Shown: positions 3,944 through 30,964, numbered from the stretch's first letter. The stretch: DNA of 42,995 bases from an uncultured Candidatus Saccharibacteria bacterium (GCA_964390475.1 CAYMIB010000002.1:1-42995); one strand, 5' to 3'. The notes: generated from the letters alone by a model not told the origin. Program-made: numbers and translations.

Positions 3944-4010
3944 AAGTGCTGATTATAGGTAATGTGAGAATTTTATCCAGCGCAGCACCCTAAAGCATAA
4001 AACATAAAGA

Positions 4011-4032
4011 GCGGGACTGTTAGTCGTCCCGC
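4011..4032 (-). terminator. Intrinsic terminator of the 4041-4385 cassette
   Basis: Minus strand reads GCGGGAC-gactaaca-GTCCCGC followed by tctttatgtttta, 9 nt after the stop codon. Confidence 0.7.
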
Positions 4033-4525: not shown

Positions 4526-5740
4526 TTAGTTTCTGGGCTTAACTGTTTTTGTAGGTAAATCAATACTTCTGACTTCGGCTTTTTGATTATCTGTTGGATT
4601 TTTTACTGACGCTTCCTTTTCTTTGTTTTCTTTTTCAGCTAGTTCTGACTGACTAGTAGATTCCGATTCTGACTTTAAATTAATTTTTACTTCATCGGGT
4701 ATATTTTGGTCCTGAACAAGTCCGTAGGCCTCCTTAAACAAAGCAAAAGCTTCGGTATATTGCTGATTTTTCAGTTTCTCTTCGCCAAGTCTGATCAACT
4801 CCCGAGCATGAATCAATGGATCAACAACCGTAACGACTTCGATTTCACCTGCAACTGTAGAAGTTTTGGCACTTTTGGTATCAACCGGTTGGATTGAGTC
4901 AGCGGTAGGCGCGGTAACAGAAGCCGGAGCAGAAACAGTCATCAAGGAGATTTCTCCAGTAACAATTTTACCCTCCACAGACTGCAGGGCTCTTTTTGCG
5001 GATTCAAGTTTAGCTTCAGCAATAACCTTTACGTCGTCATCAGTTTTTACAGCCAAAATCTGGTTTTCTGCATTTTCCTTCGATATAACCGAGGCCTTAT
5101 GTGGCTCGCTAAGAATATCTTTAATCACACCATCAGTTTCCAAAGAAGTTTCGAGATCGTTACTGATCACAAAAGCCGTCTTGAGATCACCGCTCTTGCC
5201 GCTTTTAGCTAAGTTTTCGACTTCTTTCTGAACCTTAAAAACATGAGAACTTAGTCTGACTGATATCTGATCTTTGATTTCTGGTGACAAACGATCTTCA
5301 ACAACTAGTTTTTTGGCTTCCTCAACGCGGTTTTTCGCTCGCTTTACTTCATATTCGATCTGAGCAGTGCCAGAAAGAAGAGCTGACTTAACACCCTCGT
5401 TTATGTTGACCATTATTGGGTAAAGAATGTCTCCAGGCAAAGAGTTTTGAGCGGCAAAAGAAGTTCCACCGGCACCGACAACCACAAAAAACATTATGAC
5501 GACGGCCGCAGCGCGGAGACTGTGGATATGAAATAAGGAAATAACTGATTGGAAATTTCCAGCCATGAATGGAGATTTTATCGGCGAGGCTGGCACAGTG
5601 TCCGTGGTCGCAACAAAAATTGGATTTTTCTTTACAAAAGAATCAACGGCAGAAAAGAGAGTGGTTTTTTCCCGCTCTGAAAGTGAGGTGGTTTTTGCCT
5701 TTTCCACCAGTTTTGAAAATATGTCTTTTTCGTTATTCAT
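4526..5740 (-). CDS. Putative anti-sigma factor / membrane protein coupled to the ECF sigma factor
   Basis: 404-aa ORF whose start overlaps the stop of the upstream sigma gene by 8 nt. One TM helix (AAAVVIMFFVVVGAGGTSFAA) and a long coiled, charged extracytoplasmic part. Function is inferred from position only. Confidence 0.5.
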   Translation of the reverse strand: MNNEKDIFSKLVEKAKTTSLSEREKTTLFSAVDSFVKKNPIFVATTDTVPASPIKSPFMAGNFQSVISLFHIHSLRAAAVVIMFFVVVGAGGTSFAAQNSLPGDILYPIMVNINEGVKSALLSGTAQIEYEVKRAKNRVEEAKKLVVEDRLSPEIKDQISVRLSSHVFKVQKEVENLAKSGKSGDLKTAFVISNDLETSLETDGVIKDILSEPHKASVISKENAENQILAVKTDDDVKVIAEAKLESAKRALQSVEGKIVTGEISLMTVSAPASVTAPTADSIQPVDTKSAKTSTVAGEIEVVTVVDPLIHARELIRLGEEKLKNQQYTEAFALFKEAYGLVQDQNIPDEVKINLKSESESTSQSELAEKENKEKEASVKNPTDNQKAEVRSIDLPTKTVKPRN

Positions 5741-6296
5741 GTTGGTTTACTAAAATCTGTTCAGCTGCTTGTGGTTCCGACAATGGAGACGAGGCTTGCT
5801 GGTCTCTCAGGATACTGCGTAACTTCTGCAATCCTCGGTGGATTCTGACCGATATATTGTTCTCGGTTTCGCCAGTAATCTCAGCAATTTCTTTGACGGA
5901 TAAGCCCTCAACATATTGCATATATATGGCATCCCGGTACTTTTCTGGTATAGAAGCTAGGAAAGCCATAGCCCGCTCACCGTCAAATTTGTCAATGATT
6001 GCCTCACTTATTTCGACTCCGACGTCAAAACCCTCTTCCATCAGACTGTCGAGCGAGCTTGCCTTTTTCTTGCGATATTGGTCGATTATGAGGTTTTTGG
6101 CAGTAGTAAAGAAAAGAGCCCTTAAGTTAACTATTTCCTTGCCATTTTTGGCATATTGCCAGACCTTCATGAAGGTTTCCTGGGTTATATCCTTAGCCAT
6201 TTCCCGGTCCGAAACACGCATAAGACAGAAGCGGAAAATAGCATCCGTATTTGCCTTGTAGGTCTCGAGAAATTGATTTTCGAAGTTTTTATTCAT
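5733..6296 (-). CDS. ECF-type RNA polymerase sigma factor (sigma-70 family)
   Basis: 187 aa. Region 2 reads IFRFCLMRVSDREMAKDITQETFMKVWQ. Region 4 HTH reads YVEGLSVKEIAEITGETENNISVRIHRGLQKLR. Confidence 0.85.
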   Translation of the reverse strand: MNKNFENQFLETYKANTDAIFRFCLMRVSDREMAKDITQETFMKVWQYAKNGKEIVNLRALFFTTAKNLIIDQYRKKKASSLDSLMEEGFDVGVEISEAIIDKFDGERAMAFLASIPEKYRDAIYMQYVEGLSVKEIAEITGETENNISVRIHRGLQKLRSILRDQQASSPLSEPQAAEQILVNQHE

Positions 6297-23426: not shown

Positions 23427-23453
23427 ACGCGGAGTGTCCGAAGACCCCCGCGT
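23427..23453 (-). terminator. Strong intrinsic terminator ending the helicase/hairpin-tail transcript
   Basis: Minus strand: ACGCGGgggtc-TTCG-gacactCCGCGT followed by TTTTTTT. The loop is a cUUCGg tetraloop. This is the first terminator-like structure downstream of the helicase stop. Confidence 0.75.
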
Positions 23454-23456
23454 CTG

Positions 23457-24101
23457 TAGAAGAGAAAAGAACAACTAACTAGACAGAACCCTACGAAACT
23501 GAACACCAGAAACGCCCACAAAGCCTTTCAGCAATGTGAGCCTGTACTCGACCCGAGATCACTGAACAGTACTGCACGATACCACGCATCACATGGCGAT
23601 AATCGAATAGTGCGAGACGTTTTTCAACGCCCTGCACTCTGAACTACAACGAACAAAAGAGGACTTGGCGACACAGTACAATGCGCCAGTAAATCGAACT
23701 CAAATGTACACGAAAGGCCTTTCGGCTTCTCGTGTCGGCACAGAAGATCACAGGAGGCCACCGAACTACAGGTCACGACGCTACAGAGAACCTAACTGGA
23801 CTCAATCAGAAACGCACCAAGGACCTTCCGGCCTCCGGTGCCTGTACCAATCAATACTGTACCTAACAGTACACGACACCAGGTCACTAGAATTACAAGT
23901 GCACAGAAGCCCTTTCGGATTTCTGTGCCGATAGAGAACCGGACCTTAGGGTGCTCTAGAATACAGAACTCCACGGGACAGCACTTAACCTAAAATTGCA
24001 CAGAGTGATCGAAAGATTACTCTGTGCCTAAAGTACACCATACTGTACTCAGCGACACAGAGCGGCAGAGTACAAAAGTGAACCATGTGTCCGGCTACAA
24101 A
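23457..24101 (-). ncRNA. Hairpin-unit tail downstream of the helicase ORF (six hairpin units, no intervening terminator)
   Basis: Family hairpins at 23514-23541, 23610-23637, 23708-23735, 23814-23841, 23901-23928 and 23998-24027. Five are 28 nt (12 bp + GAAA/GGAA on the minus strand) and one is 30 nt. Spacing is 87-106 nt. No credible ORF, and no promoter or terminator between the helicase stop (24102) and 23453. Confidence 0.55.
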
Positions 24102-25940
24102 TTAGAGAAGCAGCTTCTCTGCATCCTTCACCGCGGCGTCAAACGTCAGGTCGCCCATGTAGACTTGCTGAAGATGTTTGGGCAGTGAAGCGAAGACGTG
24201 GCGACGGAACTGTTGGGAAATGAAGAACGTGACGCCAACATCGGAGCGGCTCCGAATGTTGCGTCCACGAACCTGAAGCGCTTGTTGCATTGCCCGCTGA
24301 CCCCAGATCGCCCAGCGCTGACCTCCCCACCGATCCTCCTCGAACTGAGTTCCAGGATCACGAGGGTTTGGATAACTTGGACGAAGAAAAAAGATGACGG
24401 GCGCCATCTGCCTTGGAAGATCAATTCCCTCGGCGTAGTTGGCGGCGGTACCAACCAAAGTACTTCCTTCACCCTGCTTGAAGATGTTGGCAGCTTCCTT
24501 GGCTGTTACACCGTTGCCGTAGCTGATTACCTCGAGACCCTCTTCTGCGGCCATCCGCAAAAAACGATCTCGTTCATCATTTGAAACGACAACCACCAAC
24601 GAACGTAGCCCCTTGTCGGCAAACTGCTTGCATGAACGTGCAATCTGACGCAACGTTTTTGGCAGATCCCGATCGCTCCGCGTATTTCTTGCGAGGTTTG
24701 GCGTGTCGGTTGGCATGTAGACCCTTGTATTGCTGGCTGGGAAATTCGAATCGAGAGACAGGAACGGATCCTTGATCCCCGTTTCGAACCCAAAGATCTC
24801 AGGGTTGCCAATCGTTGCCGACAGCGACACCCGGTTCTTAGGCAAAATCATTTTGATGAGCGGCACTACGTAGTAGCACCGCACCACCAACTTGGTTTGG
24901 AACCGACCTTCTGAGACACGTTCCCTTCTCTGGAATGCGCAGGTGTAGTTGAGTGCCTTCCTTTCTTCGGTTGGCACTGAATACTCAAGCGTTGAGATGT
25001 ACCGCCTGAGATCTCTCACGAGAGTCTCGAGCTTTTTCAATGTGACACGATCCTCACGTGGATCGATCTTGCCCTTTTTCACAGCATCTCTGATAGCAAC
25101 AGCAAGCTCTTTCACATCGATTTCCCGGAGGATTTCGATGAGTTGAAGAACTTGTGCTGGCTTGAGAAGCGCTGCTTCACCAACTGCCATGCGACCAGCG
25201 ATTGAAATCATCTTTCGCCTGAATGTCCTCAGGACTCTTGCGACCTTTGGGGCAACTGACGTCAGAATTTCTTCTGATCGCTTGAGGTGTAGATCAGTAA
25301 TGTCGTAGGAAAGAGAGTTGCGGACGACGTTTGCCAACTGATGCGCCTCGTCGATCACCACACCTTGAGTATTGAACTCCTTTGAAAACAAGTGGGTGAA
25401 GAGAAAGAAGGACATCGTTGAGAGCACAAGCCGTGCTTTCTTTGCCTTATACTTTTGCTGAAGATACGGGCAAGCCGTTGCTCCCTTCACATGAGTCTCG
25501 CCCGTTTCTTGGTCTACCCGATGCGGGCAGTCCTGAAGAAATGAACACGGAATCTGATCGGCACGAGGATTTTCTGGATCATCGACAAGTGTTTCAAGCG
25601 TTTCCGATGAAACTCTCGGCTCGTTCCGGTAATACAAGCACGGATGCTCATTTCGTCCCAAAGCAACTGGCAGATCCGGAAACTCTATCCGAATCTGATC
25701 CAAAATCGTCTTGGTCGGCGTAATGATGAACACCGTACCGTCTGTCTGCGTTCGCATGTAGTTTGCGATCGCAAATTCCACAGCCGTTTTTCCTGTCCCT
25801 GTCGGCGCCTCGATGATTGCAGAGCCATGCTCCGCGTAAAACTCGAGCATGTCGTTTTGCACAACTCGTGGCTCACGATACACCGCCGTGCTTGGAAAGT
25901 GCGTTTTAAGCACTGGCAAGCTGATGGTCTTTTGGCCCAT
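24102..25940 (-). CDS. DinG/XPD (Rad3)-family SF2 helicase with four-Cys Fe-S cluster insertion
   Basis: 612 aa. Strong SD (gaAAGGAGGtccataATG). Walker A APTGTGKT. Cys cluster HPCLYY..IPCSFLQDCPH..ACPYLQ. DEAH box VVIDEAHQL. Motif VI QALQVRGRNIRSRSDVGVTFF. Confidence 0.8.
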   Translation of the reverse strand: MGQKTISLPVLKTHFPSTAVYREPRVVQNDMLEFYAEHGSAIIEAPTGTGKTAVEFAIANYMRTQTDGTVFIITPTKTILDQIRIEFPDLPVALGRNEHPCLYYRNEPRVSSETLETLVDDPENPRADQIPCSFLQDCPHRVDQETGETHVKGATACPYLQQKYKAKKARLVLSTMSFFLFTHLFSKEFNTQGVVIDEAHQLANVVRNSLSYDITDLHLKRSEEILTSVAPKVARVLRTFRRKMISIAGRMAVGEAALLKPAQVLQLIEILREIDVKELAVAIRDAVKKGKIDPREDRVTLKKLETLVRDLRRYISTLEYSVPTEERKALNYTCAFQRRERVSEGRFQTKLVVRCYYVVPLIKMILPKNRVSLSATIGNPEIFGFETGIKDPFLSLDSNFPASNTRVYMPTDTPNLARNTRSDRDLPKTLRQIARSCKQFADKGLRSLVVVVSNDERDRFLRMAAEEGLEVISYGNGVTAKEAANIFKQGEGSTLVGTAANYAEGIDLPRQMAPVIFFLRPSYPNPRDPGTQFEEDRWGGQRWAIWGQRAMQQALQVRGRNIRSRSDVGVTFFISQQFRRHVFASLPKHLQQVYMGDLTFDAAVKDAEKLLL

Positions 25941-26060: not shown

Positions 26061-26089
26061 AGAATATCACATTTATTTTAATTTGTAAA
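26061..26089 (-). promoter_or_regulatory. Extended -10 sigma70 promoter for the helicase transcript
   Basis: Minus strand: TTTACAaattaaaataaatgTGaTATTCT with a 17-nt spacer. Same design as the array promoters. Confidence 0.6.
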
Positions 26090-26114
26090 GCATTGGTCGC
26101 ACGTCTCGCTAGCA

Positions 26115-26383
26115 TAAAAAATGCCAGCAAATCTTTCGAAATGCTGGCCTGCACTATAGGAAACTGCACAATACGTAACATTACCTCACTCTACTTCGAT
26201 CAAATTGTCGGTTGCAGATTTCTCAGCAACCGACCAGTAGACCAGAAAAACTTACGGGACATTACCATGGTGTACGATACCCCACAGTATGAAGTGTCGA
26301 TCGAGTTTTTCAACCCGACCGACCCGCGCAGAACAATACCCTGCCGGACCGTAGACTTGTTAACTGAACCACGGGGCTTGTTC
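26115..26383 (-). ncRNA. Hairpin-RNA unit U7 (2 hairpins)
   Basis: Runs from the promoter in module A to the terminator GCCAGCAtttc-GAAA-gatttGCTGGC + AUUUUUU (26123-26148). Family hairpins at 26207-26234 and 26295-26322. Confidence 0.55.
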
Positions 26384-26389
26384 GATATT

Positions 26390-26446
26390 AGAATAACACG
26401 CCAGATTTGGCTTGTAAAGTAAAAGCCGAGGGTTGGGTACCTCGGC
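26390..26446 (-). promoter_or_regulatory. Fused terminator-promoter module A
   Basis: Minus strand: GCCGAGG-tacccaac-CCTCGGC cttttacTTTACA -17 nt- TGtTATTCT. The hairpin is at 26425-26446, the -35 at 26413-26418 and the -10 at 26390-26395. Confidence 0.6.
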
Positions 26447-26809
26447 GAGTAGAACACGGAGCTGAAGGCAAGGGCACGTTAGAAAGGTTGACCCTACGAC
26501 ACTGAACCGGAAGTGTTGGCTTTGTGTTCCCACAAAACTAACCTATAGAGAACTGAACATAACTCGAGTGTAGGATACCTAGCTGGACTCTAATGAAATT
26601 GTCAGTTCGACCTTTCGACCAAACTGACCTATAGGAAAGGAAACGCGAGATCACAACGCTGGACAGTACTCCACCTGACGCTACTCAACATTACTCAACT
26701 AAAATTGTCATCCGGATTTTTCAACCCAGATGACCCATAGAATGCAGTACACCACCGCACGGCACCTCACACCACTTGAGGCTACTCAACATTACTGAAC
26801 CCAAGTTCC
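26417..26809 (-). ncRNA. Hairpin-RNA unit U6 (3 hairpins)
   Basis: Lies between the module B promoter and the module A terminator. Hairpins at 26515-26542, 26601-26628 and 26707-26734. Confidence 0.55.
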
Positions 26810-26815
26810 AAAAGG

Positions 26816-26872
26816 ATAATAACACGGAATATAATTTTTGTAAAATAAAAGCCGAGGGTTGATTACCTCGGC
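26816..26872 (-). promoter_or_regulatory. Fused terminator-promoter module B
   Basis: Minus strand: GCCGAGG-taatcaac-CCTCGGC ttttatTTTACA -17 nt- TGtTATTAT. Hairpin at 26851-26872, -35 at 26839-26844, -10 at 26816-26821. Confidence 0.65.
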
Positions 26873-27663
26873 GTACACTGTGGTCGACTTCGCATGACGA
26901 TACGAAACTAGACACGAACAAACTTGAAGTGTTGGCTGACCTTTTCAAGTCCGCCAACGAGCAGTGCGACAAACATTACTATAGTGCACAACACAATACA
27001 GTGCGCTATTTACCAGGTGGTCAAAAGTGTCAGTCGAGCCTTTCGGTCCAACTGACCCAAACATCACGTTAGGAGAGAGTGCCTTACTGCACAATACCTA
27101 GCCTGACAAGACCAGACAAATCGTCAGCGAGATCTTTGAACCTCGCTGACCCATACAGCAGTTTACTATTCCTTACTAGACTGAGCTATGCTCTAGAACA
27201 GTGAACCGCGTTTATCTATTACAATATCTCAACCGATTTTTTCAAACCGGTCGAGCCTTAGAATACCGTGATGTAGAAGACAGGAGACTACGTCGCCATA
27301 CTCGACCTGAGTCTACCCGACGGTGAAAATTTGTCAGTCCAGTTTTCACCAAACTGACCGAAAGTGGAGAACACTTAGGTATACGGCACAATACCGTACG
27401 ATACCCTGGCGAACTAAAACGTCAGTTCAACCTTCCGGCTAGACTGACCTACAGATAACTGAACCTGACTCGAACGCAGGTTACCTAGCTGGACTCTAAT
27501 GAAATTGTCAGTTCGACCTTTCGACCAAACTGACCGATAGAAAACTCAACTTGGCGGAACAAAACTGGACGCAACTAGAATTGTCATCCGGATTTTTCAA
27601 CCCAGATGACCAGTACTGCTCAGTAGCCAACTGCGCGGGACTCAACCTTGCAATACTCTATCC
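26843..27663 (-). ncRNA. Hairpin-RNA unit U5 (8 hairpins, longest unit)
   Basis: Hairpins at 26931-26958, 27029-27056, 27123-27150, 27228-27255, 27333-27358, 27421-27448, 27507-27534 and 27583-27610. Bounded by the module C promoter and the module B terminator. Confidence 0.55.
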
Positions 27664-27669
27664 GAATGC

Positions 27670-27724
27670 ATAATAACATGAATTATTTTTTTGTAAAATA
27701 AAAACCGAGGGTTGGTTACCTCGG
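27670..27724 (-). promoter_or_regulatory. Fused terminator-promoter module C
   Basis: Minus strand: CCGAGG-taaccaac-CCTCGG tttttatTTTACA -16 nt- TGtTATTAT. Hairpin at 27705-27724, -35 at 27692-27697, -10 at 27670-27675. Confidence 0.6.
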
Positions 27725-28099
27725 CGAAAAGCTAAGTGCCAATCACTTCTTTCGAAGAGAATGGCCCATACACAGCGGTACCGCACGCCAGGCCACCTGA
27801 CCTTACAGTGGTACACGAAGCTGAAATTGCTAGTCGAACTTTTCAGTTCGACTAGCCGGTACAAGACTCATGAGTACACGACCGAAGTCAACAGAACACT
27901 ACCGGAAATGTCAGCGTCACCTCTCGGCGAAACTGACCTACAGAGGAGTCAACACTGGGTTGCTGCACAAAACTCTACCTAACACTGCTACACGAAAGGA
28001 CAAAATGTCGAACTTGTGTTTCCACAAGATCGACCCTCAGAACACAAAGCCAGACTGGACAGAGCAACACACCACTAAACCATGTTATAAAAGCTGTCT
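27697..28099 (-). ncRNA. Hairpin-RNA unit U4 (4 hairpins)
   Basis: Hairpins at 27738-27765, 27829-27856 (perfect 12 bp + GAAA), 27910-27937 (GAGA loop) and 28007-28034. Confidence 0.55.
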
Positions 28100-28105
28100 A
28101 GCAAG

Positions 28106-28159
28106 ACAATAACACAAATTATTTTTTTGTAAAGAAAAACCGGCCACTTGGACCGGTTT
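28106..28159 (-). promoter_or_regulatory. Fused terminator-promoter module D (terminates the 86-aa ORF, promotes U4)
   Basis: Minus strand: AAACCGGtccaagtggCCGGTTT ttcTTTACA -16 nt- TGtTATTGT. The hairpin sequence differs from the other modules, but the promoter half is conserved. Confidence 0.6.
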
Positions 28160-28177
28160 GTGCTGTGACTCAGAGAT

Positions 28178-28438
28178 TCACTCGAACAAATAGAAGAGCT
28201 CTCCCTTCACGAGATCCTTCTCCTCAACCTCAATTTTCCCCTCAATCTCCTTAAGGATTTCTTTCCAATTCTCGGTGTTCTCACCAGTCCGGTATGTGAA
28301 TCTCTCAGCAATAGACTCACACCGTCCACCACCCTCTTGCCTTTGGCAGAGAATTCTGTCGGCCTCTTCCCGATTTTCAGCCAGAATCACGTAGCTGGTC
28401 AAGCCTGGTCCTGTGTAAATGTACGCCTTCAATTCCAT
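28178..28438 (-). CDS. Orphan 86-aa protein occupying one slot of the RNA-unit array
   Basis: The internal ATG at 28438 has the SD aAGGGGAaagtcATG. The track start at 28513 abuts the upstream terminator with no room for a promoter or RBS. Product MELKAYIYTGPGLTSYVILAENREEADRILCQ... has no motif I recognise. Confidence 0.6.
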   Translation of the reverse strand: MELKAYIYTGPGLTSYVILAENREEADRILCQRQEGGGRCESIAERFTYRTGENTENWKEILKEIEGKIEVEEKDLVKGELFYLFE

Positions 28439-28475
28439 GACTTTCCCCTTCGTTTGTGTGTTTGGATCTTTTCTC

Positions 28476-28504
28476 AGAGTATCATAAATATAAATACTTG
28501 TCAA
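28476..28504 (-). promoter_or_regulatory. Extended -10 promoter of the 86-aa ORF
   Basis: Minus strand: TTGACAagtatttatatttaTGaTACTCT with a 17-nt spacer. Confidence 0.55.
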
Positions 28505-28518
28505 ATGGACCATTCATA

Positions 28519-28800
28519 ATAAAAAAGTCGAGGATTGGTTACCTCGACGCGCACCAGGGTAAAGACTAGGCTACGAAACAAAACGGAACACTACTTTGCG
28601 AAATTGAAATTATTAGCTGAGCCTTTCGACCCAGCTAATCTACAGAGGAACAGACTGAGGTTAACGGTGCGATACGTTACCGTACGCCGCCTTAGACCAA
28701 ATTGTCAATCTCGCCTTTCAGCCAGACTGACCCGGAGAGTACTACAGTCAACAGCGGTAGACGGTAGATCACTGCACGTGAGTGAAGAACATCACGATCC
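28519..28800 (-). ncRNA. Hairpin-RNA unit U3 (2 hairpins)
   Basis: Hairpins at 28612-28639 (AUUAG.../...CUAAU base) and 28704-28731. Confidence 0.55.
28521..28548 (-). terminator. Terminator E (ends unit U3)
   Basis: Minus strand: GTCGAGG-taaccaat-CCTCGAC followed by TTTTTTATTAT. Same hairpin family as modules A-C, F and G, with a compensatory stem change. Confidence 0.65.
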
Positions 28801-28806
28801 GCACTC

Positions 28807-28862
28807 ACTATAACACGAATATCGTTTTTGTAAAATAAAAGCCAAGGGTTGGGTACCTCGGC
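28807..28862 (-). promoter_or_regulatory. Fused terminator-promoter module F
   Basis: Minus strand: GCCGAGG-tacccaac-CCTTGGC ttttatTTTACA -16 nt- TGtTATAGT. The stem has a G.U pair on the minus strand, which would be an A.C mismatch on the + strand. Confidence 0.6.
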
Positions 28863-29043
28863 GAGTAGGAAGGTGGACACCAGAAGACGATGCGAAACAC
28901 AACAGTAAAACACTGAACTTTATTTTTTTGAATTGTCAGCCCAGTTTTTCAACCGGACTGACCCGCAGACAACTACACAGCAGTAGAGTACACGTCACAT
29001 CACGCAACTCGACCGTGCAAAACGTAACCTCAATTACTTTTCT
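28833..29043 (-). ncRNA. Hairpin-RNA unit U2 (1 hairpin)
   Basis: Single hairpin at 28935-28962, identical in sequence to the inverted copy at 30833-30860. Confidence 0.55.
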
Positions 29044-29049
29044 TCAAAG

Positions 29050-29105
29050 ACAATAACATGGATTTATATTTTGTAAAATAAAAGCCAAGGATTGGTTACC
29101 TTGGC
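29050..29105 (-). promoter_or_regulatory. Fused terminator-promoter module G
   Basis: Minus strand: GCCAAGG-taaccaat-CCTTGGC ttttatTTTACA -16 nt- TGtTATTGT. The stem carries a compensatory G-C to A-U change relative to modules A-C. Confidence 0.6.
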
Positions 29106-29744
29106 GTAGAGTGGAGTACACAGAACGACACTGAAGAGTGCAAGAGGATACCGCACACCACGTCACCTCAGACCACGCTAAAGCGTCAGCTCGATTTTTC
29201 AATCAAGCTGACCCGTACCTGGGAATACAACAGCTTGCTGGACGAGAGACTAGCGTACACTACTGGACCAAAGCGTCAGCTTAGTTTTTCAACCAGGCTG
29301 ACCAGCACGGAAGTCCGGCCCACGAGACATGGCTAGACACCACTTCAAATTGTCGGCATCACCTTTCGGTGTAACCGACCGGCACAGAACTCTGCCGTAG
29401 CTTACAGGGCTATACGTAACAGAGCCACAGACAAAATTAAATTGTCGACCGTGTGTTTCCACAAGATCGACCCTTAGCACAGCACAGTTAACGGCAGAAC
29501 ACGGCAGTTCACGGCACTTGAGTGTAGATCAAAGTGTTAGCCCAGCATTTCTACCGGGTTAACCAGCAGTGTACATCACCGCACATTACCAAAGACGACG
29601 TCACGCTACGAAACCTCACTTCAAAATTGTTGGCACCGCGTCTCCGCGATGCCAACCCATAGAGCACCGGACGCGACCTGGCGATACCTAACAATACCTT
29701 GGGTGACAATACCCTGGGTGACTGTACCCAACTTAGATCGATCC
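29076..29744 (-). ncRNA. Hairpin-RNA unit U1 (6 hairpins)
   Basis: Hairpins at 29185-29212, 29275-29302, 29352-29379, 29444-29471, 29536-29563 and 29629-29656. The 5' end is inferred from the putative promoter at 29751-29779. Confidence 0.5.
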
Positions 29745-29750
29745 TCACAA

Positions 29751-29793
29751 AATCTACTATCATGTTGACACGAAGTCAACCGTATGTTAAGTT
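29751..29793. promoter_or_regulatory. Back-to-back divergent promoters sharing a palindromic -35 region
   Basis: + strand: TTGACAcgaagtcaaccgtaTGtTAAGTT (29765-29793, 17-nt spacer) for the 242-aa gene. Minus strand: TTGACT -17 nt- TAGATT (29779 down to 29751) for U1. gTTGAC-acgaa-GTCAAc is a perfect inverted repeat. Confidence 0.5.
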
Positions 29794-29880: not shown

Positions 29881-30609
29881 ATGAAGCGTTTGCTGATCAC
29901 GTGTGTTGGTGCGTATCCCATCATGATGGACCCGATGACTGATGAAGTGCTCGACAGCCTCGCAACAGGCGTCCGTGTTCAGATCCAGAAGGATCTGTCT
30001 CATGCCGATGTCGCTCGCAAGAAGATCTACCGCGAGAATGGCGACAAGGATGGTCGGATCGGCCTGCCGACCGAAATGCTTTTCGCGGCATTGGTTGCGG
30101 CAGGTCGCAAGGTTTCCTACCGAGGCAAAACCAATATCTCGACCGCTGAAACCTCCATGTTGCCCGGCCTGCTCACGATCAACGAGGACTTCCTGCCGTT
30201 CCCAATTCCGGACGGCGCGACCGAGCCGAAGTGGACGGTCGACAAGCGGCGTGGACGTCTGGAGAACGGTACGGCTGTGTGCTTGCGTCGTCCCAAGTTC
30301 GCCGACTGGGGTTTCGAGGTCACCATTGACTTCGATGACAAGGAGATCAGCGAGGGCAAGGTTCGAGAACTCTTCAACATCGCCGGCCGGTTCTGCGGAC
30401 TCGGATCTTTCCGACCGAGCTGCAAGGGTCCGTTTGGTCGGTTCGCGGTCCAGAAACTCGCCGACATCACGCCCACCGAATGGGCGAATGAGCCGGCTGA
30501 GGAAATCGAAGAGGGCGACGACACTGACCAGACTGGCGGCGAAGAGCGCCGGACTGGCAACAGTCATGGCAGGACCGGGACCAGGAACGGCGCGCTCGCG
30601 GGAGCTTGA
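29881..30609 (+). CDS. GC-rich 242-aa hypothetical protein with RAMP-like glycine-rich motif (possible RNA-binding/processing protein)
   Basis: SD acGGAGaaagaccATG. Of three overlapping long frames this is the only one with an RBS and a balanced composition. GLGSFRPSCKGPFGRF, near the end of the folded part, resembles the RAMP/Cas6-type G-rich loop (weak). Acidic disordered tail. The functional call is low confidence. Confidence 0.75.
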   Translation: MKRLLITCVGAYPIMMDPMTDEVLDSLATGVRVQIQKDLSHADVARKKIYRENGDKDGRIGLPTEMLFAALVAAGRKVSYRGKTNISTAETSMLPGLLTINEDFLPFPIPDGATEPKWTVDKRRGRLENGTAVCLRRPKFADWGFEVTIDFDDKEISEGKVRELFNIAGRFCGLGSFRPSCKGPFGRFAVQKLADITPTEWANEPAEEIEEGDDTDQTGGEERRTGNSHGRTGTRNGALAGA

Positions 30610-30698
30610 ACCGGCAACTGACGTTCTTCAGAAGGCAATGTTGTTTTGTAGTGCATAGTAAACAGCAGTTGCGTCATGCGCGTTTCTGTTCACTATCG

Positions 30699-30756
30699 CG
30701 GGCGTCCTGAAAAGGGCGCCCGTTTTTCTTTACTAAATCGAAATTTGTGTTATCTT
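30699..30756 (+). promoter_or_regulatory. Fused terminator-promoter module on the + strand
   Basis: CGGGCGTCCT-GAAA-AGGGCGCCCG (10 bp + GAAA) followed by TTTTTcTTTACT -16 nt- TGtTATCTT. Same layout as the minus-strand modules. Confidence 0.6.
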
Positions 30757-30762
30757 GGCGTT

Positions 30763-30964
30763 TGGACTCAAGTAGACTAGTGTTCCGTTGAGTACAGCAG
30801 GCTTGAGTATGGATCAGTTCTCTTTTCCGCGGGTCAGTCCGGTTGAAAAACTGGGCTGACGATTAGACCTCAGTTTTGTGTTCCACAGTTCGCTCGTGTG
30901 ACGTGATGTCCATTTAAGTTCCGTTTTCTGTCCGCCAGGGTATCCAATCCCTGGCTTTTATTTT
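30763..30964 (+). ncRNA. Inverted (plus-strand) hairpin-RNA unit, paralogue of U2
   Basis: Hairpin at 30833-30860 (GTCAGTCCGGTT-GAAA-AACTGGGCTGAC). Terminator GCCAGGG-tatccaat-CCCTGGC + TTTTATTTT at 30934-30964, abutting the tgt stop codon. Confidence 0.55.

What the first reader, a model, noticed from the sequence alone, without database searches (positions are those of the whole stretch)
26390..29105. Six fused terminator-promoter modules split the array into separate transcription units
Modules A, B, C, D, F and G share one layout on the minus strand: a 6-7-bp hairpin, then a U-run whose end forms the -35 (TTTACA), then a 16-17-nt spacer, then an extended -10.

The -10 variants are TGtTATTCT, TGtTATTAT, TGtTATTAT, TGtTATTGT, TGtTATAGT and TGtTATTGT. 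The positions most critical for -10 function (T1, A2, T6 and the TG) are invariant across copies.

The helicase promoter (26061-26089), the 86-aa ORF promoter and the + strand module at 30699-30756 use the same design.

Putting an individual promoter and terminator on each 200-800-nt non-coding unit is unusual. It suggests the units are expressed as discrete RNAs, possibly at different levels, rather than as one long precursor like a CRISPR array.
Basis: seen in the sequence. Interest (0 to 1): 0.8.

Follow-up and report, generated by a model that had tools for sequence, protein, structure and literature searches.

The report
Terminator-promoter punctuation in a guide-RNA array
Compact "stop-then-restart" transcription signals cut a very long array of VIPR-type guide RNAs in a Saccharibacteria (CPR) genome into separate transcripts; this array layout is not described in the 2026 preprints that defined VIPR systems.

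Summary
Six minus-strand modules (26390-26446, 26816-26872, 27670-27725, 28106-28159, 28807-28862, 29050-29105) share one layout: a 7-9 bp GC-rich hairpin, a U-run, TTTACA overlapping that run, a 16-17 nt spacer, then TGtTAnnnT. One plus-strand module (30698-30756) has the same layout.

The "array" is a VIPR locus, the system defined in a 2026 bioRxiv preprint. The 242-aa gene is a Vipr-family RAMP. Each ~90-nt unit is a vrRNA-like RNA of 8-16 in-register [G/C]UNNN pentads plus a 3' hairpin. A DinG-like helicase is the accessory gene. I count about 41 units.

In five of six modules the terminator hairpin sits in exactly the slot and pentad register of a unit hairpin. It therefore ends a guide as well as a transcript.

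The layout recurs in relatives. In 29 related CPR loci there are 40 terminator-to-promoter junctions on the array sense strand, against 1 on the antisense strand. Phage VIPR arrays have none.

Separate transcription units are well supported by sequence and comparison, but each unit still holds 1-9 guides and there is no transcript data. I rate it a new variant of a known kind, of moderate interest.

The parts
26390..26446 (-). Module A: terminator hairpin 26446-26425 (GCCGAGG-tacccaac-CCTCGGC), U-run, -35 TTTACA 26418-26413, 17-nt spacer, TGtTATTCT ending at 26390
   Evidence: dG -12.4
26816..26872 (-). Module B: terminator 26872-26851, TTTACA-N17-TGtTATTAT
27670..27725 (-). Module C: terminator 27725-27704, TTTACA-N16-TGtTATTAT. 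It is the only module whose terminator follows a unit hairpin directly (13 nt) instead of capping a pentad tract.
28106..28159 (-). Module D: 9-bp terminator 28159-28137 after the 86-aa ORF, TTTACA-N16-TGtTATTGT
28476..28548 (-). Module E (semi-fused): module-type terminator 28548-28527, then TTGACA(28504-28499)-N17-TGaTACTCT driving the 86-aa ORF
28807..28862 (-). Module F: terminator 28862-28841, TTTACA-N16-TGtTATAGT
29050..29105 (-). Module G: terminator 29105-29084, TTTACA-N16-TGtTATTGT
30698..30756 (+). Plus-strand module after the vipr-like gene: 11-bp terminator 30698-30723, TTTACT(30729-30734)-N16-TGtTATCTT
   Evidence: dG -22.1
30757..30955 (+). Plus-strand transcript with two vrRNA-like units: one ends in unit hairpin 30833-30860, the other in module-type terminator 30934-30955
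26100..29779 (-). Main vrRNA-like array with its first promoter (TTGACT-N17-TAGATT, 29779-29751). It holds 27 units ending in a 12-bp tetraloop hairpin and 5 units ending in a terminator hairpin. Each unit has 8-16 in-register [G/C][U/C]NNN pentads.
26061..26089 (-). Helicase promoter TTTACA-N17-TGaTATTCT, same design as the modules
24102..25940 (-). DinG/XPD-family helicase, the accessory (vap-like) gene of the locus
   Evidence: PADLOC typeIV_DinG 5.6e-41; phrog_2488
23427..24100 (-). Six or seven more vrRNA-like units downstream of the helicase gene, with no promoter or terminator separating them from it and none between them, closed by terminator 23452-23427
29881..30609 (+). vipr-like gene: a 242-aa RAMP-fold protein of the Vipr family
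   Evidence: phrog_4652 4e-17; PDB 36pp 'SUSP1 Vipr protein' 1.3e-11
28178..28438 (-). 86-aa ORF inserted in the array as its own transcription unit; no homologue in any related locus

Best explanation
What it is. The island at 23.4-31.0 kb is a chromosomal VIPR locus (Viral Interference Programmable Repeat) in a Saccharibacteria-like CPR genome. It has three parts:
- a vipr gene encoding an ancestral RAMP;
- a DinG-type helicase as the accessory gene;
- about 41 vrRNA-like guides, each a tract of 8-16 pentanucleotide repeats ([G/C]UNNN, the 'YNNNG' variant) capped by a 3' hairpin.

What the modules are. Each of the six modules is a compact two-function punctuation mark.
- A Rho-independent terminator (7-bp GC stem, 8-nt loop, U8-9 run) ends transcription. 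In five of six cases it also serves as the 3' hairpin 'tail' of the last guide, in the exact register used by ordinary unit hairpins.
- The last three U-run thymines are reused as the start of the -35 hexamer (TTTACA) of an extended -10 sigma-70-type promoter. That promoter launches the next group of guides, with a primary 5' end about 10-15 nt before the first pentad.

What they do.
- They cut the 3.7-kb array into seven guide-RNA transcription units, one small-ORF unit and the helicase operon.
- Inferred: they keep distal guides expressed in a very long, hairpin-dense array.
- Inferred: they give the end guides processing-independent termini.
- Inferred: they may set guide dosage.

Shown and inferred.
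- Shown by sequence and comparison: the anatomy, the register, the covariation and the cross-genome recurrence.
- Inferred: actual termination, actual initiation and Vipr loading.
For: Module anatomy and non-chance occurrence.

RNA-level selection on the terminator stem:
- 15 copies from 4 genomes are 100% paired, and 4 of 7 pairs show compensatory changes, including G.U pairs.

Selective conservation:
- Hexamers, TG and the U-run are invariant while promoter spacers vary.
- Modules are 81-95% identical to each other, while the co-duplicated flanking units are 70% identical.
- Between the window and L001, only the module (88-92% over 40 nt) and one 17-mer survive in the whole array.

Slot and register:
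- All 32 pentad tracts end in the same phase relative to the next hairpin, whether that is a unit hairpin or a terminator hairpin.
- They carry 8-16 in-register pentads.

Recurrence:
- 29 non-redundant CPR loci have 142 terminator-like sites and 40 terminator-to-promoter junctions on the array sense strand.
- The antisense strand has 17 and 1. Flanks have 0.05 junctions per kb, against 0.75 per kb in arrays.
- Homologous modules are in L001, L008 and L158.
- Analogous modules of unrelated sequence are in L003, L015, L023, L032, L033 and L035.

Functional analogue: hammerhead-III-like ribozymes sit directly after unit hairpins in L006. Hammerhead-interspersed vrRNA arrays are reported in 10.64898/2026.04.26.720920.

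Identity of the system:
- Vipr-family protein with a RAMP fold.
- 5-nt periodicity: GT observed/expected is 3.4-3.6 at lags 5, 10, 15 and 20.
- The same pentad arrays flank vipr in phage SUSP1 and in viral contigs.
- The unit hairpin is strand-specific RNA: 12 of 12 pairs covary and 39 cells are G.U.
- The preprint gives the vrRNA definition and lists helicase accessory genes.
Against: - There is no transcriptome, 5'-end or 3'-end data for this organism.
- The U-run is interrupted (TTTTATTTT) and the stems are short, so read-through could be substantial.
- The -35 matches TTGACA at only 5 of 6 positions. Function in a CPR host is assumed from the sigma-70 consensus.
- Module copies are paralogues that spread by segmental duplication. 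They may be homogenised by gene conversion, so within-genome conservation is not independent evidence.
- One orthologous module (L008, 3487-3412) has TATTAA, which lacks the critical T6.
- Twelve of 29 related arrays have no junction by my criteria, and phage VIPR arrays have none. The feature is therefore not required for VIPR function.
- The conserved loop GGUAACCAAYCC has no explanation under a plain terminator model.
Confidence: 0.75

Rival explanations
1. The hairpin plus U-run is mainly a structural 3' tail of the guide RNA, for example a cap or nucleation site for the Vipr filament or a shield against exonucleases. Termination is incidental and leaky. The array is mostly read through as long precursors, and the internal promoters only top up expression.
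For: - The terminator hairpin sits in the same pentad register as unit hairpins.
- Its loop is conserved across genomes (T12, A13, C16, A17 invariant), which a plain terminator does not need.
- Phage VIPR units also end in a weak hairpin plus U-run with no promoter behind it.
- In L010 every unit ends in this hairpin type.
- The preprint reports a conserved structured 3' tail on vrRNAs.
Against: - In the window, long U-runs (8 of 9 U) occur only at hairpins that are followed by a promoter. Ordinary unit hairpins have AAUUU.
- Module C's terminator caps no pentad tract.
- Module D and the plus-strand module use unrelated hairpins in the same layout.
- This reading is not exclusive with the main explanation.
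Confidence: 0.2
2. The inverted repeat GCCGAGG-N8-CCTCGGC is a DNA operator for a dimeric transcription factor centred about 50 bp upstream of each start site. It regulates the promoters and does not act as an RNA hairpin.
For: - Its position is about -42 to -63 relative to the predicted start.
- The central 8 nt are conserved.
- The copies are identical in layout.
Against: - Substitutions are compensatory and include G.U pairs (modules C and F). G.U pairs preserve RNA pairing but break DNA symmetry.
- The strand bias is strong: 142 sense against 17 antisense terminator-like sites.
- Analogous modules in distant loci have unrelated stems but always a U-run.
- No regulator gene is present in the island.
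Confidence: 0.04
3. The modules are inert copies of a single terminator/promoter junction, for example the one in front of the helicase gene. They were carried along by segmental duplication of the array and have no individual function.
For: - A 337-nt block holding a module plus three units is duplicated (27726-27443 and 26873-26537).
- Modules are the most similar segments in the array.
Against: - Modules are more conserved than the units duplicated with them: 81-95% against 70%.
- Within modules the variation is confined to the promoter spacer and to compensated stem positions.
- Orthologous modules persist in genomes whose Vipr proteins are only 53-61% identical.
- Junctions of unrelated sequence arose in distant arrays.
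Confidence: 0.05

Closest known systems
VIPR systems (Vipr RAMP protein plus vrRNA arrays); bioRxiv 10.64898/2026.04.26.720920 and 10.64898/2026.04.26.720927; PDB 36pp 'SUSP1 Vipr protein'
   Same: - Vipr-family protein: the profile hits the SUSP1 Vipr sequence at E = 1.3e-11, and phrog_4652 matches at 4e-17.
- ~90-100-nt RNAs made of 8-16 pentanucleotide repeats followed by a structured 3' tail.
- Arrays flank the vipr gene.
- A helicase-class accessory gene is present.
- Hammerhead-interspersed arrays occur in relatives.
   Different: - The pentad consensus is [G/C]UNNN (the preprint's 'YNNNG' alternative), not GGYNN.
- There are about 41 guides, against 4 in SUSP1.
- The locus is chromosomal in Saccharibacteria/CPR.
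- The accessory gene is a DinG/XPD-type helicase. I could not assign the locus to one of the seven published types.
- Terminator-promoter punctuation is not among the array architectures listed in the preprint's main text (tandem, staggered, ribozyme-interspersed, single). The word 'terminator' does not occur there.
Hammerhead-ribozyme-interspersed vrRNA arrays (preprint fig. S19; here L006)
   Same: An element placed right after a guide's 3' hairpin creates a discrete RNA end inside the array.
   Different: The end is made by self-cleavage of a long precursor. In the window it is made by termination and re-initiation.
Type II-C CRISPR arrays of Neisseria meningitidis and Campylobacter jejuni with a promoter in every repeat (from memory: Zhang et al. 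2013, Mol Cell; not checked here)
   Same: Extended -10 promoters embedded inside a guide-RNA array give primary, processing-independent 5' ends.
   Different: There a promoter sits in each identical repeat, with no paired terminators, and the system is Cas9-based. Here discrete terminator-plus-promoter modules occur every 1-9 guides.
Type IV-A CRISPR-Cas (Csf2/Cas7 backbone plus DinG helicase)
   Same: A RAMP-fold RNA-binding protein is found next to a DinG-family helicase. The best PADLOC hit for the helicase is a type IV DinG model, at 5.6e-41.
   Different: There is no CRISPR array of identical repeats. No Cas5, Cas6, Cas8-like or Cas1/2 genes are present. Guides are pentad repeats, not contiguous spacers.
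Ordinary intrinsic terminators and sigma-70 extended -10 promoters
   Same: All consensus features are present.
   Different: The novelty is their fusion (a 3-nt overlap of the U-run and the -35), their repetition, and the use of the terminator stem-loop as a functional guide-RNA tail.

Membership tests
VIPR system | Vipr-family RAMP protein | tested here: met
   Profile of 32 family members against PDB sequences: 36pp 'SUSP1 Vipr protein', E = 1.3e-11 over residues 3-193. phrog_4652 matches full length at 4e-17. The AF2 model (pLDDT 88) hits only Cas7/Csm3-type RAMPs in the PDB. The G-rich loop motif GLGSFRPxCKGPFGRF is present.
VIPR system | vrRNAs: 9-16 tandem pentanucleotide repeats (YNNGG or the variants NNNGG/YNNNG/NNNNG) followed by a structured 3' tail, next to vipr | tested here: met
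   GT autocorrelation is 3.4-3.6 times expectation at lags 5, 10, 15 and 20. Pentad position 1 is G 64%/C 23% and position 2 is U 81%. There are 8-16 in-register pentads per unit, ending 1 nt before the hairpin. The hairpin covaries at 12 of 12 pairs.
VIPR system | vrRNAs are expressed, bind Vipr and guide DNA recognition | not testable with these tools
   No expression or binding data. No target was found in the 1.58 Mb of held sequence under four decoding rules.
VIPR system | Assignment to one of the seven published types (Vipr phylogeny, vrRNA architecture, vap gene) | tested here: inconclusive
   The preprint places helicase or nuclease vap genes in types III-V. Its tables and trees are not held.
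Rho-independent terminator | GC-rich stem-loop directly followed by a U-run, on the transcribed strand | tested here: met
   dG -10.3 to -12.4 kcal/mol, tails TTTTATTTT. The stem shows compensatory changes.
Rho-independent terminator | RNA 3' ends form there in vivo or in vitro | not testable with these tools
   Needs Term-seq or in vitro transcription.
Sigma-70 extended -10 promoter | -35-like hexamer, 16-18 nt spacer, TGn, TAnnnT | tested here: met
   7 matches against 0.06 expected; these positions are invariant.
Sigma-70 extended -10 promoter | Primary 5' ends about 7 nt downstream | not testable with these tools
   Needs dRNA-seq or Cappable-seq.
CRISPR array / type IV CRISPR-Cas | Near-identical direct repeats separating unique contiguous spacers | tested here: not met
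   Unit hairpins differ in sequence and keep only their structure. The 'spacers' are pentad repeats. One is conserved between genera.
CRISPR array / type IV CRISPR-Cas | Csf1/Cas8-like, Cas5 (Csf3) and Cas6 genes beside Cas7 and DinG | tested here: not met
   Only three ORFs lie in the island. The two small ones have no Pfam, PADLOC or NCBIfam hit.

The most novel reading that the evidence does not exclude
Terminator-promoter modules are a fourth, transcription-based route of vrRNA biogenesis, beside tandem, staggered and ribozyme-interspersed arrays. In this route the terminator stem-loop itself is the Vipr-recognised 3' tail and the promoter defines the 5' end. Guides then need no nuclease at all, and promoter strength sets their stoichiometry. 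In the extreme case (L010) every guide would be its own gene, with the -35 (TTGCCA) built into the terminator's 3' arm. This would be a CPR-specific adaptation in genomes with few RNases. It would allow an unusually large (about 40-guide) chromosomal VIPR-helicase defence locus.
Probability: 0.35. Interest if true: 0.65.

Novelty: new variant of a known kind. Interest (0 to 1): 0.5.

Why it matters
VIPR systems were described only in 2026, as minimal RNA-guided DNA-binding systems proposed to be older than CRISPR. How their guide arrays are transcribed and matured is largely open.

This locus shows three things:
- A helicase-associated VIPR in an ultra-small CPR bacterium can hold about 40 guides.
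- Its array is organised by repeated stop/restart signals, not by one leader promoter.
- The terminator hairpin is placed in the exact register of a guide tail.

If this holds up, it gives a processing-free design for expressing many vrRNAs from one compact cassette, which is useful for multiplexed VIPR tools. It also adds a new architecture to the natural diversity of guide-RNA arrays.

Tried and rejected
- Phage origin of the window: rejected. The flanking genes are UvrB, Tgt, a two-component system and glycogen genes, and no phage record matches.
- Rfam: no family in the array.
- CRISPR or type IV reading: considered after the DinG hit and the Cas7-like fold. Rejected on repeat structure and missing cas genes.
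- G/U richness as a transcription-linked mutation bias: dropped once the 5-nt [G/C]U periodicity explained it.
- 6-nt (Cas7-like) periodicity: absent. The period is 5.
- DinG next to vipr homologues in viral contigs: none in 80 loci.
- Non-CPR homologues sit in prophage replication modules without arrays detectable by my GT-phase detector.
- Module pattern scans of JGI metagenome contigs: 0 hits, then 5 chance hits in coding DNA.
- Target search for 36 guides under the rules NN, NNx, NNN and NNNx in 1.58 Mb of held sequence: none at 85% or better.
- Homologues of the 86-aa ORF in related loci: none.
- Nine literature searches timed out before one succeeded.
- The preprint's supplementary tables are not held, so the VIPR type could not be assigned.
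Full report
**Observation**

On the minus strand between 26390 and 29105 there are six copies of one layout. It consists of a GC-rich hairpin, a U-run, TTTACA that overlaps the end of the run, a 16-17 nt spacer, and TGtTAnnnT.

- The consensus scan finds the hairpins at 26446, 26872, 27725, 28159, 28862 and 29105. It finds the promoters at 26418, 26844, 27697, 28133, 28834 and 29077, all with TG before the -10.
- The pattern TTTACA-N13/14-TGNTANNNT occurs seven times in the 43-kb window. These are the six modules plus the helicase promoter, all on the minus strand of this island, against 0.06 expected.
- The 34-nt module consensus has five hits at 3 or fewer mismatches, with none expected.
- Hairpin energies are -10.3 to -12.4 kcal/mol, and the tails read TTTTATTTT.
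- In an alignment of the modules with their orthologues, the U-run, TTTAC and TGTTA are invariant, while the promoter spacer varies freely.

Three minor corrections apply:
- The helicase promoter is not fused to a module-type hairpin.
- The 86-aa ORF promoter is TTGACA-N17-TGaTACTCT and starts 22 nt after its terminator.
- The plus-strand module at 30698-30756 has the same layout with a different hairpin.

**What the array is**

The window is a bacterial chromosome carrying UvrB, Tgt, a two-component system and glycogen genes. The closest relatives are Saccharibacteria MAGs. The island at 23.4-31.0 kb contains three ORFs.

- *Helicase.* The 612-aa protein is a DinG/XPD-family helicase.
- *Vipr-like protein.* The 242-aa protein has no Pfam, PADLOC or NCBIfam hit. 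It belongs to phrog_4652.
  - Its AF2 model (pLDDT 88) matches only Cas7/Csm3-type RAMPs.
  - A profile of its family hits PDB 36pp 'SUSP1 Vipr protein' at E = 1.3e-11.
- *Published definition.* Two 2026 bioRxiv preprints define VIPR systems (10.64898/2026.04.26.720920 and .720927).
  - A VIPR system has a Vipr RAMP and ~100-nt vrRNAs made of 9-16 pentanucleotide repeats followed by a structured 3' tail. The repeats are YNNGG, or the variants NNNGG, YNNNG or NNNNG.
  - The variable positions read double-stranded DNA with a one-nucleotide skip.
  - Accessory genes include helicases and nucleases.
  - Arrays can be tandem, staggered, hammerhead-interspersed or single.
- *The window fits this definition.*
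  - The 'variable' segments show a very strong 5-nt periodicity. GT observed/expected is 3.4-3.6 at lags 5, 10, 15 and 20, and 0.1-0.2 at the neighbouring lags.
  - The pentad consensus is [G 64%/C 23%][U 81%]NNN.
  - Each unit has 8-16 in-register pentads that end one nucleotide before a hairpin.
  - The 12-bp tetraloop hairpin covaries at all 12 pairs and has 39 G.U cells. It is therefore an RNA structure of the minus strand.
- *Same arrays elsewhere.* The same kind of pentad array flanks vipr in phage SUSP1 and follows vipr homologues in viral contigs.
- *Unit count.* I count about 41 vrRNA-like units.
  - 32 lie in the main array.
  - 6-7 lie downstream of the helicase gene, with no signal separating them from it, and end at a terminator at 23452-23427.
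  - Two lie on the plus strand after vipr.

**How the modules fit**

The modules occupy the slot of a unit hairpin.

- All 32 pentad tracts end in the same phase relative to the next hairpin, whether that is an ordinary unit hairpin or a terminator hairpin.
- Five of six terminators are preceded by 9-14 in-register pentads. Module C's terminator is the exception and follows a unit hairpin by 13 nt.
- From the predicted start sites to the first hairpin is 53-81 nt, which is one guide length.
- So the terminator stem-loop ends both the transcript and the last guide, and the promoter provides a primary 5' end for the next guide.
- The result is seven guide-only transcription units of about 200-810 nt holding 1-9 guides, one unit for the 86-aa ORF, and the helicase operon.

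**Evidence that the modules are functional**

1. *The terminator stem is selected as RNA.* In 15 copies from four genomes it is 100% paired, and four of seven pairs show changes on both sides. G.U pairs are present.
2. *Modules are more conserved than their surroundings.*
   - They are 81-95% identical to each other. A 337-nt block (module plus three guides) that was duplicated with them is only 70% identical.
   - Between the window and L001, only the module (88-92%) and one 17-mer are recognisable in the whole array. The helicases of these two loci are 76% identical and the Vipr proteins 53%.
3. *Homologous modules occur in relatives:* in L001, L008 (two internal) and L158. The short L028 array has only the terminal one.
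4. *The architecture recurs with unrelated sequences in distant CPR arrays* (L003, L015, L023, L032, L033, L035).
   - Over 29 non-redundant loci, the array sense strand has 142 terminator-like sites (2.65 per kb) and 40 terminator-to-promoter junctions (0.75 per kb).
   - The antisense strand has 17 sites and 1 junction. Flanking DNA has 0.05 junctions per kb.
5. *One relative uses ribozymes.* L006 has hammerhead-III-like ribozymes directly after unit hairpins (E = 5e-5 and 2e-4, below Rfam's gathering score). The preprint describes this architecture. It indicates that discrete ends inside these arrays are selected for.
6. *Phage arrays lack the modules.* Phage VIPR arrays have no such junctions in 6 kb. 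The feature belongs to the helicase-associated CPR clade.

**Limits**

- Nothing here measures transcription.
- The U-run is interrupted and the stems are short, so read-through is possible.
- Each transcription unit still holds several guides. These must either act as multi-guide RNAs or be cut, plausibly in the AAUUU after each hairpin (inference).
- The conserved loop GGUAACCAAYCC is unexplained.
  - It changes in concert within a genome: 8-nt loops in all window copies and 5-nt loops in both L158 copies.
  - This suggests either gene conversion or recognition by a factor.
- That leaves room for a rival reading in which the hairpin is mainly a guide tail and termination is leaky. I give that about 0.2. 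It is compatible with the main explanation.
- A DNA-operator reading is disfavoured by the G.U-compensated changes and by the strand bias.
- An inert-duplicate reading is disfavoured by the pattern of conservation.

**Comparison and novelty**

- The locus meets the sequence-level criteria of a VIPR system. I could not assign its type, because the preprint's tables are not held.
- It is not a CRISPR or type IV system. It has no identical repeats and no Cas5, Cas6 or Cas8.
- The preprint's main text lists tandem, staggered, ribozyme-interspersed and single-guide arrays. It does not contain the words terminator, DinG, CPR or Patescibacteria.
- A terminator/promoter-punctuated array in a DinG-associated CPR VIPR therefore appears to be a new variant of a very recently described kind.
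- The nearest conceptual precedent, recalled from memory and not checked, is the repeat-embedded promoters of type II-C CRISPR arrays in Neisseria.

**Verdict**

The transcription units are well supported by comparison. However, the units are multi-guide, the nature of the array was missed, and expression is untested.
- Interest is moderate (0.5). The underlying system is remarkable but already published. The added value is the new array architecture and the dual-use terminator/tail.

Noticed in passing
No promoter or terminator separates them from that gene, and there are none between them. Their hairpins have a GCAC...GTGC base instead of GTCAG...CTGAC. A strong terminator at 23452-23427 closes the group.
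   Followed up: partly
L006 2079-2133, 2343-2397 and about 3975-4030 (+): Three hammerhead type III-like ribozymes sit directly after unit hairpins in a related CPR array. Two were detected by Rfam at E = 5e-5 and 2e-4, below the gathering score. The third was seen by eye and has an intact CUGAUGA...GAAA core.
   Followed up: partly
L010 4394-5796 (-): In this Saccharibacteria-related array every unit ends in a module-type hairpin (GGCAAGG-taaccaat-CCTTGCC) plus a T-run. The 3' arm TTGCCA/TTGCCT is followed at 16-18 nt by a TAnnnT hexamer in 8 cases. Each guide may therefore be its own gene. The promoter matches are weak.
   Followed up: partly
L005 10790-12650 (+): Units are separated by ~45-nt AT-rich palindromes (CTAATCAATG...ATTGATTAG) that contain TGtTATAAT-like extended -10 elements. 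This may be another form of per-unit promoter, or an operator.
   Followed up: no
window 28178-28438 (-): An 86-aa ORF with its own promoter and terminator is inserted in the middle of the guide array. It has no Pfam, PHROG or PADLOC hit and no homologue in any of the related loci.
   Followed up: partly
window 26425-29105 and L158 170-190, 2046-2066: The terminator loop changes in concert within a genome: an 8-nt UAACCAAY loop in all window, L001 and L008 copies, and a 5-nt UUAAC loop in both L158 copies. This points to gene conversion or to a genome-specific binding partner.
   Followed up: no
L008 about 5690-5800 (+): A short ORF inside the array resembles a truncated duplicate of the N-terminus of the vipr-like gene (MRRLRIQCEGTRPLIMDP...). 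Just upstream of it, on the array (minus) strand, lies a second copy of the divergent promoter region.
   Followed up: no
L038 3555-10628; L040 2278-10037: Non-CPR Vipr homologues (30-36% identity) sit in prophage replication/recombination modules (DUF3799 nuclease, ParB_N, AAA_24, DUF669, RusA, SF2 helicase, methylase). No pentad run was picked up by my GT-phase detector there. These may use another repeat consensus.
   Followed up: partly
window 26552-26568; L001 about 8916-8900 (-): One guide segment (CTCGAGTTATGTTCAGT) is identical between genomes whose Vipr proteins are only 53% identical. This hints at a conserved target.
   Followed up: no
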